From positions 1 through 5,767 of the forward strand of contig JAQVRT010000032.1 of NCBI GenBank assembly GCA_028700905.1: DNA of 5,767 nucleotides, given 5' to 3'. The translations under genes and the position numbers were made by a program. The stretch is from Candidatus Iainarchaeum sp. Its GTDB lineage: Archaea > Iainarchaeota > Iainarchaeia > Iainarchaeales > CSSED10-239. The notes beneath the pieces were generated by a model. It saw only the letters and a program-made list of their open reading frames with translations. It ran no database searches and was not told where the DNA came from. Within the stretch, counting starts at the first letter, position 1. Each line of letters begins with the position of its first letter. Shown here piece after piece: positions 1-5,565 of the stretch.

Positions 1-89
1 GTCAGAACCGCAATCTCCTGCTTGTAATGTATCTGTGTGTGTGAAACATCCACATGAGTCAGAACCGCAATCTCCTGCTTGTAATGTAT
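1..89. repeat. Interspaced direct repeat. Identical 32-nt copies at 1-32 and 58-89 are separated by 25 unrelated nt (57-nt period). Candidate CRISPR terminal repeat-spacer-repeat, or a coding cassette repeat.
   Basis: GTCAGAACCGCAATCTCCTGCTTGTAATGTAT occurs twice with no mismatch. Segment 33-57 has no similarity to 90-114. The repeat is GC-richer than the flanking AT-rich DNA. The first copy abuts the window edge, so further copies may lie outside. Confidence 0.9.
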
Positions 90-114
90 TTAAATTAAAA
101 TTTTCTATACTCAT
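1..114 (-). CDS. Partial CDS (N-terminal 38 codons, runs off the window) for a Cys-rich repeat-containing peptide or protein: MSIENFNLNTLQAGDCGSDSCGCFTHTDTLQAGDCGSD...
   Basis: The ATG at 114..112 is preceded by GAGGTTA (127..121) plus a 6-nt spacer. The eL40, eL41 and 5695 ORFs in this window share this SD geometry. The frame stays open to position 1. The 57-nt repeat period equals 19 codons. Third codon positions are mostly A/T, like the other genes. The competing interpretation is a CRISPR array, and plus-strand frame 2 is also open. Confidence 0.45.
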   Translation of the reverse strand, partial: MSIENFNLNTLQAGDCGSDSCGCFTHTDTLQAGDCGSD

Positions 115-208
115 GTTTTATAACCTCTTTATTTATTTTAATAATTTAAAAAATAGTTTTTAAAAATAAAATTAGTTTATTAAATTTGACTTATTTTAAA
201 ATTAATAT

Positions 209-236
209 CGCCTGTCAACTTGGCGAAAAGTTGAAG
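209..236 (-). repeat. Conserved 28-nt tRNA 3' trailer motif, copy A (CTTCAACTTTTCGCCAAGTTGACAGGCG on the minus strand), immediately after tRNA-Ala.
   Basis: It matches 5509-5536 on the opposite strand at 25 of 28 positions, with the first 18 nt identical. It starts at the base after the discriminator. It can fold as TCAACTT/AAGTTGA or as CGCC/GGCG hairpins. Confidence 0.85.
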
Positions 237-309
237 TGGACTCTGCGAGATTCGAACTCGCGGCCTCGTCCTTGCAAGGGACGCGCTCTACCAGCTGAGC
301 TAAGAGCCC
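237..309 (-). tRNA. tRNA-Ala(UGC): tRNA-Ala, anticodon UGC, 73 nt, no intron, CCA not encoded.
   Basis: Hand-folded cloverleaf: acceptor GGGCUCU/AGAGUCC with the G3:U70 alanine identity pair, D arm GCUC/GAGC, anticodon stem CGUCC/GGACG with loop CUUGCAA, T arm GCGAG-UUCGAAU-CUCGC, discriminator A. Confidence 0.95.
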
Positions 310-446
310 TAATAACTATTGAACCAATATATTATATATATTATAGAACAAAAATATTTATAAACACATCAGATTTATTTTTAATAAAAATTATAAAAAT
401 AAAACAATGGACTGATAAATATACTTTAAAAAAAAATATTATTAAA

Positions 447-483
447 TAAAAAAAGAAAAATTTCTTATAATTAAAGAAATTTT
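447..483 (-). terminator. Hairpin plus oligo-U terminator candidate downstream of the 16S rRNA.
   Basis: The minus-strand RNA has a 10-bp stem, AAAAUUUCUU (483-474) paired with AAGAAAUUUU (466-457), and a 7-nt loop. It is followed by UCUUUUUUUA. The tail UUUUUCUUUUUUUA is identical to the one at 2822..2809. Archaeal RNA polymerase is known to terminate at oligo-T tracts. Confidence 0.5.
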
Positions 484-496
484 GATGTGTGGAAGA
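483..496 (-). other. 3' strand of a candidate pre-16S processing helix (pairs with 2128-2139).
   Basis: Trailer RNA UCUUCCACACAUCA pairs with leader RNA UGAUGUGGAAGA as 7 bp, a 2-nt bulge, then 5 bp. The helix encloses the mature 16S, as expected for archaeal rRNA processing stems. Confidence 0.4.
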
Positions 497-515
497 AAAA
501 CAAACACTTCAGGTT

Positions 516-530
516 AGGTAAGTTTTTAAA
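516..530 (-). promoter_or_regulatory. Second copy of the 15-nt box TTTAAAAACTTACCT (minus strand), in the spacer just 3' of the 16S. Possibly an internal promoter or a conserved pre-rRNA element.
   Basis: Exact 15-nt identity with 2237-2251. It contains a TATA-like TTTAAAAA. Confidence 0.3.
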
Positions 531-569
531 ACTTTTAAAATAACAACTAGTTTAGTCATTATATAAAAT

Positions 570-2064
570 AGGAGGTGATCCGTCCGCAGGTTCCCCTACG
601 GACACCTTGTTACAACTTAGTCTACCTCGCGAAATATAGAATAACTTTATCCTTTAGTAGAGTAAAGTTCATCAACACTCCACTCGGTTGGCTTGATGGG
701 CGGTGTGTGCAAGGCGCAGGGACATATTCACCGCGTGATAGTGACACGCGATTACTGGGGATTCCAGCTTCATGAGGGTGAGTTGCAACCCTCAATCCGG
801 ACTTAGACTAAGTTTTTGAGATTGCCACCCCTTTTCAGGTTAGATACTCTTTGTCTTAGCCATTGTATGCCGCGTGTTGCCCAGAACATTCACGCTATAC
901 AGACCTACCTTCGCCCACTCCTTCCTCATTGTTACCAATGCAGTCCTATTAGAGTGCCTTCTTTTGCAAGCAAAAAAAGTAGCAACTAATAGCATGGGTC
1001 TCGCCCGTTACCTGAGTTAACAGGAAGCTTCACAGTACGAGCTGACGATGGCCATACAGCAGTTCTCAGCGCATCAGGTAACCCCTTCAGAGTGACCATC
1101 ATATTGCTGTCAGCCCTGGTAAAATATCTGGCGTTTCATCCAATTAAACCGCAGCATCCACCCCTTGTAGTGCACCCCCGCCAATTCCATTAAGTTTCAG
1201 TCTTGCGACCATACTTCCCAGGCGGTGAATTTAATGGTTTCCCTTCGGCCCTGAGCTAACTCGTAGTTAACCCAACACCTAATTCACATCGTTTACGGCT
1301 GGGACTAACCGGGTATCTAATCCGGGTTGCGCCCCCAGCTTTCGTATCTCACTGTCGAATCCGTACTCGTTAAGCGCCTTCGCCACAGGTGGTCTTTTTA
1401 GTATCTTAAGATTCTACTCCTACTCTAAAAATACCCTTAACGTCTTCCGGTTCCTAGTCATGCCAGTATCTTTTGCAATTCAACTAGTTAGGCTAGCTGC
1501 GTTCACAAAAGACTTAACAAACCAGCTACACACGCTTTAAGCCAAATAATGCTGGATACCACTTGGGGATTACGTATTACCGCGGCGGCTGGCACGCATA
1601 TTGCCCTCCCCTTATTCACATAGTTATTCACACTATATAAAAGCTTACATAGTAAGCACTTGGAATCTCTTTATCACGATTTCTCGCATTGTAAAAGTTT
1701 CGTAACTGCTGCACCCCGTAGGGCTAGGGACATTATCTCAGTTCCCTTCTCCGGGCTCCCTCTCTCAAGGCCCGTACAGATCTTCGGCTTGGTAGGCAGT
1801 TACCCTACCAACAACCTAATCTGGCGCAGTCCCATCCTTTCGCGCCAAAGAAGCATGATTCTTTGACCTTTAAAATAGTAATCATTCCAGATTTACTTTT
1901 CTATAGAGCATTATACTCAGTTTCCCGAGTTTAACTCTTCAAAAGGGTAGGTTGACCACGTGTTACTGAGCCGTTCGCCAAAACCTCTCATAGCTGAGGC
2001 TTTAAGACTTGCATGTCTTAGTCAGATTCCAATAGCAGTATCCACCAGCAGGATCAGCTGGAAT
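570..2064 (-). rRNA. rrs: 16S (SSU) ribosomal RNA, archaeal type, complete, about 1495 nt, no intron.
   Basis: Read on the minus strand. The 5' end is AUUCCAGCUGAUCCUGCUGGUGG. GUGCCAGCCGCCGCGGUAA is at 1578-1596. GGAUUAGAUACCCGGUUAGUCC is near 1300-1323. The 3' end is ...GUAACAAGGUGUCCGUAGGGGAACCUGCGGACGGAUCACCUCCU. GC content is much higher than in the flanks. Changes in helix 45 are compensatory. Confidence 0.97.
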
Positions 2065-5508: not shown

Positions 5509-5536
5509 CTTCAACTTTTCGCCAAGCTTGCAGGCG
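5509..5536 (+). repeat. Conserved 28-nt tRNA 3' trailer motif, copy B (CTTCAACTTTTCGCCAAGCTTGCAGGCG), immediately after tRNA-Gly.
   Basis: It is the inverted partner of 209-236 (25 of 28 identical, first 18 nt identical). It starts at the base after the discriminator. Confidence 0.85.
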
Positions 5537-5538
5537 TT

Positions 5539-5565
5539 GTTGACAAGCAAAGATGCTTAGTTAAC
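5539..5565 (+). other. Stable hairpin directly after trailer motif copy B.
   Basis: GTTGACAAGCA-AAGA-TGCTT(A)GTTAAC forms 11 bp (one G-U pair, one bulged A) with a 4-nt loop. It is unusually GC-containing for an intergenic region here. Confidence 0.5.

What the first reader, a model, noticed from the sequence alone, without database searches (positions are those of the whole stretch)
1..128. Perfect interspaced 32-nt repeat at the window edge: CRISPR end or a multi-cassette Cys-rich peptide gene
The 32-mer GTCAGAACCGCAATCTCCTGCTTGTAATGTAT occurs at 1-32 and 58-89 with zero mismatches. The 25 nt between the copies is unrelated to the 25 nt after the second copy. That is a repeat/variable/repeat architecture, not a simple tandem duplication.

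Reading A is a CRISPR array end: a 32-nt repeat, a 25-nt spacer, and an AT-rich leader-like tract (90-208). No cas gene is visible, only two copies are in view, and the spacer is short.

Reading B is coding. The period is 57 nt, exactly 19 codons. On the minus strand an ATG (114..112) sits 6 nt after GAGGTTA. Three other genes here share that SD geometry: AAGGTGA+6 for eL40, AAGGCGA+6 for eL41 and AAGATGA+6 for the 5695 ORF. A G-rich SD is conspicuous in this nearly G/C-free spacer. The frame stays open for all 38 codons: MSIENFNLN-TLQAGDCGSD-SCGCFTHT-D-TLQAGDCGSD. So a nucleotide-identical block (TLQAGDCGSD) flanks a variable Cys-rich 8-mer. This resembles multi-core RiPP precursors, where recognition sequences are conserved and the cores vary. 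The G-D-C-G-S-D-S-C-G-C chemistry is reminiscent of radical-SAM or thioether-modified peptides.

Either reading would be notable in a reduced archaeal genome. If the window start is a contig end, a break exactly at the far edge of a repeat fits a multi-copy element that fragments assemblies.
Basis: partly seen in the sequence, partly recalled or inferred. Interest (0 to 1): 0.75.

Follow-up and report, generated by a model that had tools for sequence, protein, structure and literature searches.

The report
Two-repeat cysteine-rich microprotein gene, not CRISPR
The perfect 32-base repeat is an internal duplication inside a real 51-codon gene for a small, acidic, cysteine- and histidine-rich protein that sits just after the 16S rRNA and tRNA-Ala genes in Forterrea-type DPANN archaea; it is not a CRISPR array, and nothing nearby supports a multi-cassette modified-peptide precursor.

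Summary
The 32-mer occurs exactly twice (window 1-32 and 58-89) with no mismatches, and none is expected by chance.

Longer contigs of the same organism run through the window edge. One is 99.4% identical to the window, and a close relative is the complete genome of Ca. Forterrea multitransposorum. They show a complete minus-strand gene of 51 codons: MNIENFNLN-TLQAGDCGSDSCGCYTHTD-TLQAGDCGSDSCGCSSHNE-ILMA. It has two 19-codon units, then a stop codon and unique sequence.

The CRISPR reading is refuted. The coding reading is right about strand, frame, start codon and ribosome-binding site. However, there are never more than two units.

About 13 homologues exist, all 51-57 aa with two units. All come from one clade whose 16S is at least 95.9% identical to the window's. 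pN/pS is 0.13-0.55. In all nine lineages with DNA the gene follows 16S and tRNA-Ala(UGC).

The nucleotide-perfect repeat reflects homogenisation of an old duplication within the gene. Each unit keeps 2-3 Cys, an invariant Gly and an invariant His.

No known family, solved structure or confident fold matches, and no peptide-modifying enzyme lies within 10 kb. My best guess is a two-module metal-binding microprotein. A precursor of a modified peptide remains a minority possibility.

The parts
1..114 (-). Codons 1-38 of a 51-codon microprotein gene, cut by the window edge. The full product in the 99.4%-identical contig L001 is MNIENFNLNTLQAGDCGSDSCGCYTHTDTLQAGDCGSDSCGCSSHNEILMA.
   Evidence: Translation. 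Complete ORF at L001 12673-12828. The window aligns with L001 over its full length at 99.4% and ends at L001 12786. pN/pS is 0.13-0.55 in all 21 pairs compared.
31..87 (-). Unit 1 (codons 10-28, TLQAGDCGSDSCGCFTHTD). It carries Cys16, Cys21, Cys23 and His26.
1..30 (-). Unit 2, first 10 codons (TLQAGDCGSD). The remaining nine codons of the unit and the ILMA-stop tail lie beyond the window.
58..89 (.). 32-nt repeat copy that belongs to unit 1 (gene-proximal copy).
1..32 (.). 32-nt repeat copy that belongs to unit 2. The contig or window breaks inside the repeat.
123..128 (-). Shine-Dalgarno AGAGGT, 8 nt before the ATG here and 6-8 nt before it across the loci compared. It is complementary to the 16S 3' end (...GGATCACCTCCT) encoded at window 570-582.
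   Evidence: Upstream alignment and the SD table of ten representative loci. 16S 3' end read.
236..309 (-). tRNA-Ala(UGC), immediately upstream of the microprotein gene in every lineage.
570..2064 (-). 16S rRNA. The conserved order is 16S, tRNA-Ala, microprotein gene.
204..235 (-). Conserved trailer with a hairpin after tRNA-Ala, between the tRNA and the gene. It is absent in the three lineages where the gene starts 39-41 nt after the tRNA.
   Evidence: (I1).

Best explanation
Shown: the repeat is the internal tandem duplication of a 19-codon unit inside a genuine 51-codon protein-coding gene on the minus strand. The gene has its own SD and ATG. It lies directly downstream of the 16S rRNA and tRNA-Ala(UGC) genes, in the slot where many archaea have 23S. 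The family is confined to Forterrea-like DPANN archaea and always has exactly two units.

The duplication is old. In six lineages the two units are only 61-72% identical at nucleotide level, and each unit is closest to a unit in another lineage. In three lineages, including the window's, the units have been re-homogenised. In the window's clade the 5' 32-42 nt of the units are identical, while the 3' 15 nt of unit 2 still resemble the orthologous unit 2 of L018. That mosaic explains the nucleotide-perfect 32-mer as gene conversion within the gene.

Inferred: the product is a small cytoplasmic protein that is acidic in the window's clade and intrinsically unfolded without a ligand. Each unit, [AVI]-G-x0-1-C-x1-6-(C)-G-C-x-[STG]-H-x-[DEN], supplies 2-3 thiolates, one invariant imidazole and flanking carboxylates. 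The protein would therefore bind one or more soft or borderline metal ions (Zn, Ni, Fe or Cu) or a small metal cluster. It would act as a metal-binding, metal-buffering or redox microprotein. It may be expressed together with, or close behind, the rRNA-tRNA transcript.

The confidence of 0.45 applies to the whole statement, including the inferred metal-binding function. The structural part (a real two-unit coding gene, not CRISPR) I hold at 0.95 or more.
For: Gene structure: a complete ORF in five independent assemblies, and in the closed Forterrea genome and a 671-kb MAG.

Coding constraint: start, stop and frame are kept. pN/pS is 0.13-0.55 in 21 of 21 pairs. Amino-acid identity is 50-69%, against 74-78% for FEN1 and 48-59% for the DUF4013 neighbour. 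There is no RNA-structure signal (z = -0.46).

Architecture: about 13 homologues, all with two units. Invariant columns are A13, G14, G22, H26, G33, G41, H45, I48, L49 and A51. Every member has 4-6 Cys and exactly 2 His. The window's clade has 0-2 Lys+Arg against 6-7 Asp+Glu. Cys positions slide (DCGSD to DSGCN, CGSDSC to CDCGNS), but five of the seven distinct full-length variants still have 5-6 Cys. A thiolate-cluster binder tolerates this; a fixed disulfide fold does not.

Synteny: 16S, tRNA-Ala, then the gene in nine lineages.

Homogenisation. Homologous recombination is documented as the main force shaping Forterrea populations (PMC5905446).

Fold: AlphaFold finds no autonomous fold (pLDDT 40-42). 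This fits a peptide that orders only around a ligand.

From my own knowledge, not tested here: the N-terminal CxxCGC motif of E. coli HypB is a high-affinity Ni site, and plant and bacterial metallothioneins are built of C-G-S, C-x-C and His elements.
Against: Metal binding is inferred from composition and conservation only. The peptide matches no Pfam, NCBIfam or PDB metal-binding family.

At 8-12%, the Cys content is below that of classical metallothioneins. One family member has only 4 Cys (P0014).

AlphaFold usually models true zinc knuckles and rubredoxins confidently, and it did not do so here.

No metal transporter or regulator is conserved next to the gene. The conserved neighbours reflect general synteny in a narrow clade, so they carry little functional information.

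No expression or protein data were available.
Confidence: 0.45

Rival explanations
1. Two-core RiPP or metallophore precursor. MNxENFNLNTLQAG acts as a short double-glycine-like leader, and each ...QAG|DCGSDSCGC... unit is cut out and its Cys, Ser and Thr residues are modified into azoles, thioethers or oxazolone/thioamide groups, as in LAPs, ranthipeptides or methanobactin. The enzymes would be encoded elsewhere in the genome.
For: The unit is rich in Cys, Ser, Thr and Gly, and Cys and Ser swap between orthologues. Such swaps are tolerated in azole and lanthionine cores (my knowledge). In the window-clade sequence, hydrophobic residues sit at -4, -7 and -12 from the A-G (my reading against a consensus I recall). 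The peptide has no fold of its own. RiPP clusters are reported in DPANN (PMC12144867). One related lineage carries a separate small ORF plus a radical-SAM/SPASM-like pair 6 kb away.
Against: No radical-SAM, YcaO, LanB/C/M, DUF692, C39-peptidase ABC exporter or other maturase lies within 10 kb in Forterrea or the Iainarchaeum MAG. The radical-SAM pair in L023 has its own precursor-like ORF and is absent from the other lineages.

The peptide matches no NCBIfam or Pfam precursor family even at E <= 10.

There are never more than two units. The inter-unit 'leader-like' segment is deleted in the window's clade. Conservation is highest in the putative core (G, C, H), not in a leader. The invariant His and the conserved C-terminal ILxA tail are not typical of excised cores. 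The host genome is 0.84 Mb with minimal metabolism (PMC5905446).
Confidence: 0.15
2. A translated microprotein whose function is not metal binding. It could be a CGC-type thiol redox peptide, a binding partner or regulator of another protein, or a weakly constrained lineage-specific small ORF.
For: The family is restricted to one genus-level clade (16S at least 95.9% identical to the window's). It evolves fairly fast (50-69% identity). It has no detectable homologues or fold. The number of Cys varies from 4 to 6.
Against: Both His, the Gly of each C-G-C, A-G and the ILxA tail are invariant, and pN/pS is below 1 in every pair. This argues for a specific constrained function centred on the Cys/His motif. 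That chemistry most commonly means metal ligation.
Confidence: 0.3
3. End of a CRISPR array: a 32-nt repeat, a 25-nt spacer and an AT-rich leader.
For: The repeat/unique/repeat layout at a contig edge, followed by an AT-rich tract.
Against: Only two copies exist in contigs that run through the window edge, followed by a stop codon and unique genes. The period is exactly 19 codons in an ORF under purifying selection with protein homologues. In relatives the 'repeats' diverge from each other to 61-72%. The repeat has no palindromic structure. No cas gene lies within 10 kb. The 'spacer' has no hit in the viral collection. The 'leader' is the tRNA-Ala-to-gene intergenic region with an SD.
Confidence: 0.01
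4. Assembly artefact or non-coding structured RNA. The duplication would not be real, or the conserved GC-rich patch would be an RNA element of the rRNA operon.
For: The window ends inside the repeat. One k=31 Logan contig (L022) shows a single-unit, 57-nt-shorter version. The element sits in an rRNA-tRNA locus.
Against: The two-unit gene is recovered in many independent assemblies, including k=141 MEGAHIT contigs, JGI assemblies and a manually closed genome. Substitutions are biased to synonymous sites. Folding energy is no better than shuffles. Rfam finds nothing there.
Confidence: 0.02

Closest known systems
Prokaryotic and plant metallothionein-like or small Cys/His metal-binding peptides (e.g. 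SmtA/BmtA-type MTs, plant MT C-G-S/C-x-C blocks)
   Same: Small size. Rich in Cys, Gly, Ser and Asp, with C-x-C motifs and His ligands. Internally duplicated. Cys positions drift between orthologues. No fold without metal. The comparison itself rests on my own knowledge.
   Different: No sequence homology to any Pfam or NCBIfam family. Only 4-6 Cys (8-12%). Contains aromatic and aliphatic residues and a conserved hydrophobic C-terminal ILxA tail. Metal binding is untested.
HypB N-terminal CxxCGC high-affinity nickel motif
   Same: A short Cys3 motif ending in C-G-C. Unit 1 of P0002 is literally C-N-S-C-G-C.
   Different: This is a resemblance recalled from memory. Spacing is C-x1-6-C-G-C in the family. 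There is no GTPase domain and no hyp genes nearby. Forterrea is reported to have an [FeFe], not a [NiFe], hydrogenase (PMC11216029).
Archaeal zinc-finger micro-proteins (CPxCG type, e.g. Haloferax HVO_2753) and rubredoxin
   Same: A 50-60 aa archaeal protein with two pseudo-symmetric Cys-containing halves. The size matches rubredoxin.
   Different: No CPxCG or CxxCG knuckles, no Pfam match, no aromatic core, and AlphaFold pLDDT about 40.
Multi-core RiPP precursors and Cys-rich precursors (SCIFF/ranthipeptides, microcin B17-type LAPs, methanobactin MbnA ...LCGSCYPCSCM)
   Same: A short ORF with a repeated Cys/Ser/Gly-rich block after an A-G. The local string CGS..C..C resembles the MbnA core (from memory).
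   Different: No match to the NCBIfam precursor models. No modifying enzyme, protease or exporter within 10 kb. Only two units. The core-like part is the conserved part.
CRISPR array
   Same: A 32-nt exact direct repeat separated by unrelated sequence at a contig edge.
   Different: Two copies only, within a coding sequence, with no cas genes. See the membership test.

Membership tests
CRISPR array | Three or more regularly spaced near-identical repeats separated by unique spacers of similar length | tested here: not met
   Exactly two copies in contigs that run through the window edge. Unit 2 is followed by 13 codons, a stop codon and unique genes.
CRISPR array | Non-coding repeat, often with a partly palindromic or conserved 3' handle | tested here: not met
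   The repeat lies in an ORF with pN/pS 0.13-0.55. The 32-mer folds no better than shuffles.
CRISPR array | cas genes in the neighbourhood or genome | tested here: not met
   None among the called genes within 10 kb in L001, L011 and L013. The whole genome was not scanned.
CRISPR array | Spacer matches to mobile elements | tested here: not met
   The 25-mer has no exact match in IMG/VR viral contigs. This is weak evidence on its own.
RiPP precursor (multi-core) | Co-localised maturase, protease or exporter genes (rSAM, YcaO, Lan, MNIO, C39-ABC) | tested here: not met
   Pfam on neighbours within 10 kb in Forterrea, and precomputed Pfam for L011, L023, L026 and L027. Only L023 has an rSAM 6 kb away, with its own small ORF. 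The rest of the genome could not be tested with these tools.
RiPP precursor (multi-core) | Sequence membership in a described precursor family (e.g. SCIFF TIGR03973, NHLP, Nif11, TOMM precursors) | tested here: not met
   0 NCBIfam hits for any family member and 0 Pfam hits at E <= 10 for three of the four scanned; P0004 gave only non-significant, unrelated Pfam matches (E 0.7-1.1, about 10 bits against a 27-bit cut-off).
RiPP precursor (multi-core) | Variable number of cassettes, or hypervariable cores between conserved recognition sequences | tested here: not met
   Always two units. The invariant residues (G, H, most C) lie in the core-like part, and the linker is the variable, indel-bearing part.
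RiPP precursor (multi-core) | Post-translational modification and leader cleavage of the product | not testable with these tools
   Needs top-down mass spectrometry.
Metallothionein / small thiolate metal-binding protein | Small size, high Cys content in C-x-C / C-x-x-C motifs, few aromatic residues | tested here: inconclusive
   51-57 aa, 4-6 Cys (8-12%), a C-G-C motif and 2 His, but 2-4 aromatic residues.
Metallothionein / small thiolate metal-binding protein | Homology to a described MT family | tested here: not met
   No metallothionein or other metal-binding family match in Pfam or NCBIfam, and none in PDB at meaningful E-values; the best Pfam and PDB matches have E 0.3-1.1 and are unrelated.
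Metallothionein / small thiolate metal-binding protein | Demonstrated metal-thiolate binding | not testable with these tools
   Needs metal titration, ICP-MS or spectroscopy on the peptide.
Rubredoxin / CPxCG zinc-finger micro-proteins | Two CxxCG (or CPxCG) knuckles and a confidently predicted knuckle fold | tested here: not met
   The motifs are absent. There is no Pfam hit. pLDDT is 40-42.

The most novel reading that the evidence does not exclude
The 51-mer is a two-core precursor of a small thiol- or azole-based metallophore or signalling peptide, analogous to methanobactin or a LAP. It would be made by a host-dependent DPANN archaeon, expressed from the tail of the 16S-tRNA-Ala transcription unit, and matured by unrecognised enzymes encoded elsewhere among the roughly 45% of Forterrea proteins with no annotation.
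Probability: 0.12. Interest if true: 0.65.

Novelty: new variant of a known kind. Interest (0 to 1): 0.3.

Why it matters
It removes a false CRISPR or multi-cassette lead. It also shows why the contig breaks here: an exact repeat of at least 32 nt inside a gene.

On the positive side, it defines a previously unannotated microprotein family, labelled 'hypothetical protein' or unnamed in all sources. The family has a distinctive twice-repeated Cys/Gly/His motif and is fixed in the 16S-tRNA-Ala locus of a clade of ultra-small symbiotic archaea. In a 0.84-Mb genome that has shed most metabolism, a conserved 51-codon gene is likely to matter. If it binds metal, it would be a candidate metal buffer or chaperone, or an electron-transfer partner. 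Forterrea's ferredoxin and desulfoferredoxin have no known reductant (PMC5905446).

It is also a compact natural example of concerted evolution within a gene in an organism whose population structure is dominated by homologous recombination. The biological claim is modest and untested.

Tried and rejected
1. CRISPR. Rejected after extending the locus, counting copies and searching viral contigs for the spacer and the repeat.

2. Structured RNA. Folding of the gene region and of the 32-mer on both strands is no better than shuffles. Rfam finds nothing there.

3. Known protein families. Pfam and NCBIfam at E <= 10 give nothing meaningful: three non-significant Pfam hits for P0004 (zf-CCHC_4, 4PPT_N and YJL171C_Tos1_C, E 0.7-1.1). 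The PDB profile search gives only chance hits at E about 0.3.

4. Structure. Two AlphaFold runs, with 4 and 11 sequences, both gave pLDDT about 40, so no fold search was justified.

5. Larger proteins hit by the profile (P0009, 1339 aa; P0011, 384 aa; P0012, 5167 aa; E 1e-8 to 6e-6). For P0011, the only one whose sequence I retrieved, the hits fall on short 'CGCF'-type strings in repeats of a large, unrelated protein. P0009 and P0012 are likewise large proteins hit over only 13-23 residues per stretch. I do not treat any of them as homologues.

6. Functional linkage to the downstream DUF4013 membrane protein. It is usually 1-3 genes away, and two to three genes are inserted between them in Forterrea and L027. 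The whole region is syntenic, so adjacency carries no information.

7. Peptidase M50, about 7 kb upstream, and the AmmeMemoRadiSam genes in L024. These are lineage-variable or generic, so I do not take them as maturases.

8. Whole-genome search for maturases in CP045477.1. This was not possible because only 20-kb slices can be fetched.

9. The single-unit 32-aa variant P0005 (L022). It is identical to the window for 136 nt and then jumps to the unit-2 continuation, an exact 57-nt loss. It could be a k=31 graph collapse or a real recombinational deletion. This is unresolved.

Full report
**1. The observation**

The 32-mer GTCAGAACCGCAATCTCCTGCTTGTAATGTAT is at window 1-32 and 58-89 with no mismatches (family D5). 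Allowing three mismatches gives no further copy, and none of 200 dinucleotide-preserving shuffles gives a match. The minus strand reads MSIENFNLNTLQAGDCGSDSCGCFTHTDTLQAGDCGSD from the ATG at 114..112 to the window edge.

The surroundings are an AT-rich archaeal locus:
- tRNA-Ala(UGC) at 236-309(-)
- 16S rRNA at 570-2064(-)
- a HIT-family gene
- tRNA-Glu
- two small ribosomal-protein-like ORFs
- FEN1
- tRNA-Gly

**2. Extending the locus**

A look-up with the HIT protein of the window returned ten contigs of the same or sister strains. L001 comes from a 24-kb contig. It is 99.4% identical to the window over all 5767 nt, and the window ends at L001 position 12786, exactly where the second repeat copy ends.

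In L001 the ORF is complete, at 12673-12828. It encodes 51 aa: MNIENFNLNTLQAGDCGSDSCGCYTHTDTLQAGDCGSDSCGCSSHNEILMA. It is followed by TAA, a T-rich tract and unique genes:
- a 233-aa DUF4013-like membrane protein
- a divergent archaeal RNase P RNA
- a 264-aa protein
- thymidine kinase

So there are two units of 19 codons and no more. The same gene was called in L002, L003, L004 and L006.

Pattern scans of the genome and metagenome collections found it in two named assemblies. One is the closed genome of Ca. Forterrea multitransposorum (CP045477.1, 839,632 bp; 88% identity). The other is a 671-kb MAG labelled Ca. Iainarchaeum (69% identity). Each genome has one locus.

**3. CRISPR is refuted**
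- Only two copies exist.
- The period is exactly 19 codons.
- The repeat is in an ORF.
- No cas gene lies within 10 kb.
- The 32-mer has no special fold.
- The 25-nt 'spacer' and the repeat have no exact match in the viral collection.
- The 'leader-like' AT-rich tract is the tRNA-Ala-to-gene intergenic region. It ends in a conserved AGAGGT 6-8 nt before the ATG in every lineage.

**4. It is a real coding gene**

Seven distinct 51-codon alleles or orthologues, plus the window fragment, were aligned by codon. Start, stop and frame are conserved. Nei-Gojobori pN/pS is 0.13-0.55 in all 21 pairs. The mRNA region folds no better than shuffled sequence (z = -0.46).

Between lineages the protein is 50-69% identical. 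That lies between FEN1 (74-78%) and the neighbouring unknown proteins (35-59%).

**5. The family**

Three searches were run: a word-indexed search, an exhaustive profile search of 1.84 billion representatives and a second profile search. Together they give about 13 proteins. All are 51-57 aa. P0015 (77 aa) is an over-called start, because the SD and ATG are internal. P0005 (32 aa) has a single unit.

All full-length members have exactly two units. The window's clade lacks a 10-residue linker that the others have.
- Invariant columns are A13, G14, G22, H26, G33, G41, H45, I48, L49 and A51.
- S18, C21 and T25 are nearly invariant.
- Each protein has 4-6 Cys and exactly 2 His.
- The window's clade has 0-2 Lys+Arg against 6-7 Asp+Glu.
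- The unit consensus is [AVI]-G-x0-1-C-x1-6-(C)-G-C-x-[STG]-H-x-[DEN].
- Cys positions slide and swap with Ser between orthologues.

All nine lineages for which DNA was fetched show 16S, then tRNA-Ala(UGC), then the gene. The gap is 39-231 nt. In L027 two genes are inserted. Their 16S genes are at least 95.9% identical to the window's, so the family belongs to roughly one genus-level clade.

**6. Why the repeat is nucleotide-perfect**

Within-gene identity between unit 1 and unit 2 falls into two groups:
- 88% in the window's clade, 94% in L023 and 89% in L026.
- 61-72% in six other lineages. There, each unit's nearest relative is usually a unit in another lineage, for example L018_u2 with L001_u2 at 88% and L019_u1 with L026_u1 at 86%.

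In the window's clade the first 32-42 nt of the units are identical. The last 15 nt of unit 2 (TCTAGCCATAATGAA) still match the orthologous unit 2 of L018. In L004 both units carry ACT where the other strains carry ACA in both.

This is the mosaic expected from an old duplication that has been repeatedly homogenised by gene conversion within the gene. It fits the finding that homologous recombination shapes Forterrea populations (PMC5905446).

The repeat also explains the contig break at the window edge. It probably explains the single-unit Logan contig L022 as well. L022 is identical to the window for 136 nt and then continues as unit 2, an exact 57-nt loss. Whether that is a graph collapse or a real deletion allele remains open.

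**7. What the product does (inference)**

No Pfam or NCBIfam family matches at a meaningful level, and no PDB sequence does either. AlphaFold gives pLDDT 40-42 with 4 or 11 sequences.

There is no signal peptide or hydrophobic segment (read directly from the sequence). The invariant residues are the His and the Gly of C-G-C in each unit. They are flanked by 2-3 Cys whose number is better kept than their positions, and by Asp or Glu.

This is the signature of a ligand-organised, thiolate/imidazole metal site present twice. It could equally be one shared cluster built from both halves. I therefore favour a small metal-binding, metal-buffering or redox microprotein.

Two comparisons rest on my own knowledge and were not tested. 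C-x-x-C-G-C is the high-affinity Ni site of E. coli HypB. C-G-S, C-x-C and His blocks are typical of plant and bacterial metallothioneins.

**8. The RiPP alternative**

The composition is compatible with a modified-peptide precursor: Cys, Ser, Thr and Gly, with an A-G before each block. RiPP clusters have been reported in DPANN (PMC12144867).

Against it:
- No maturase, protease or exporter gene lies within 10 kb in Forterrea or the Iainarchaeum MAG.
- The only nearby radical-SAM/SPASM-like gene (L023, 6 kb away) has its own small ORF and is specific to that lineage.
- No precursor family matches.
- There are never more than two units.
- The linker that would carry the second recognition sequence is deleted in the window's clade.
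- The conserved part is the core-like part.

I give this reading 0.15.

**9. Verdict**

The CRISPR reading is refuted. The coding reading is confirmed, but as a two-unit microprotein rather than a multi-cassette precursor.

The family is unannotated and has no detectable relatives outside Forterrea-like archaea. It is a new sequence family of a familiar kind, the small Cys/His-rich protein with an internal duplication. Interest is modest.

Noticed in passing
window 204-235 (-) and 5510-5541 (+): The roughly 32 nt after the 3' ends of tRNA-Ala and tRNA-Gly are about 80% alike (CTTCAACTTTTCGCCAAG[T/C]TTG[A/C]CAGGCG). Across lineages the tRNA-Ala trailer keeps a 6-bp hairpin, and two of its pairs change on both sides (CAACTT/AAGTTG, AAGCTT/AAGCTT, AAGCTG/CAGCTT). 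It is absent in L019, L026 and L029, where the microprotein gene starts 39-41 nt after the tRNA. It could be a processing or termination element, or a small inserted repeat.
   Followed up: partly
L022 78-176 (same strain as the window): A Logan k=31 contig encodes a single-unit 32-aa version (MSIENFNLNTLQAGDCGSDSCGCSSHNEILMA). This is exactly the 57-nt loss expected from recombination or graph collapse between the two repeat copies.
   Followed up: partly
L001 13702-13988 (+), outside the window, about 0.9 kb beyond its left edge: A divergent archaeal RNase P RNA. It matches the full length of RF00373 at 52.7 bits (E = 4e-14), below the gathering score of 84. It lies between the DUF4013 gene and a 264-aa gene.
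   Followed up: partly
window 236-2064 (-) and all related loci: The 16S-tRNA-Ala unit is not followed by 23S. Protein genes follow directly, so the rRNA genes are unlinked, and the microprotein gene occupies the slot usually held by 23S.
   Followed up: no
L023 15861-17194 (+): In one related lineage a 52-aa ORF (...LRGTCGEKPCKGKYQ) lies directly upstream of a 387-aa radical-SAM protein with a Cys-rich SPASM-like C-terminus. This is a candidate RiPP pair. It lies about 6 kb from the microprotein gene and is absent from the Forterrea and Iainarchaeum loci.
   Followed up: partly
L023 9316-9555 (+): A 79-aa ORF with a ChaB (PF06150) hit is called in the spacer between 16S and tRNA-Ala in the L023, L024 and L025 lineage. 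I did not check whether it is real.
   Followed up: no
L013 10162-11787: In the closed Forterrea genome two genes with no family match are inserted between the microprotein gene and the DUF4013 gene. One is 191 aa on the opposite strand. The other is 313 aa with a basic C-terminal tail.
   Followed up: no
window 35-163 (+): A 42-aa antisense ORF with a GTG start overlaps the microprotein gene. A shorter counterpart exists in Forterrea (L013 9967-10074). It is probably a by-product of the codon composition of the sense strand.
   Followed up: no
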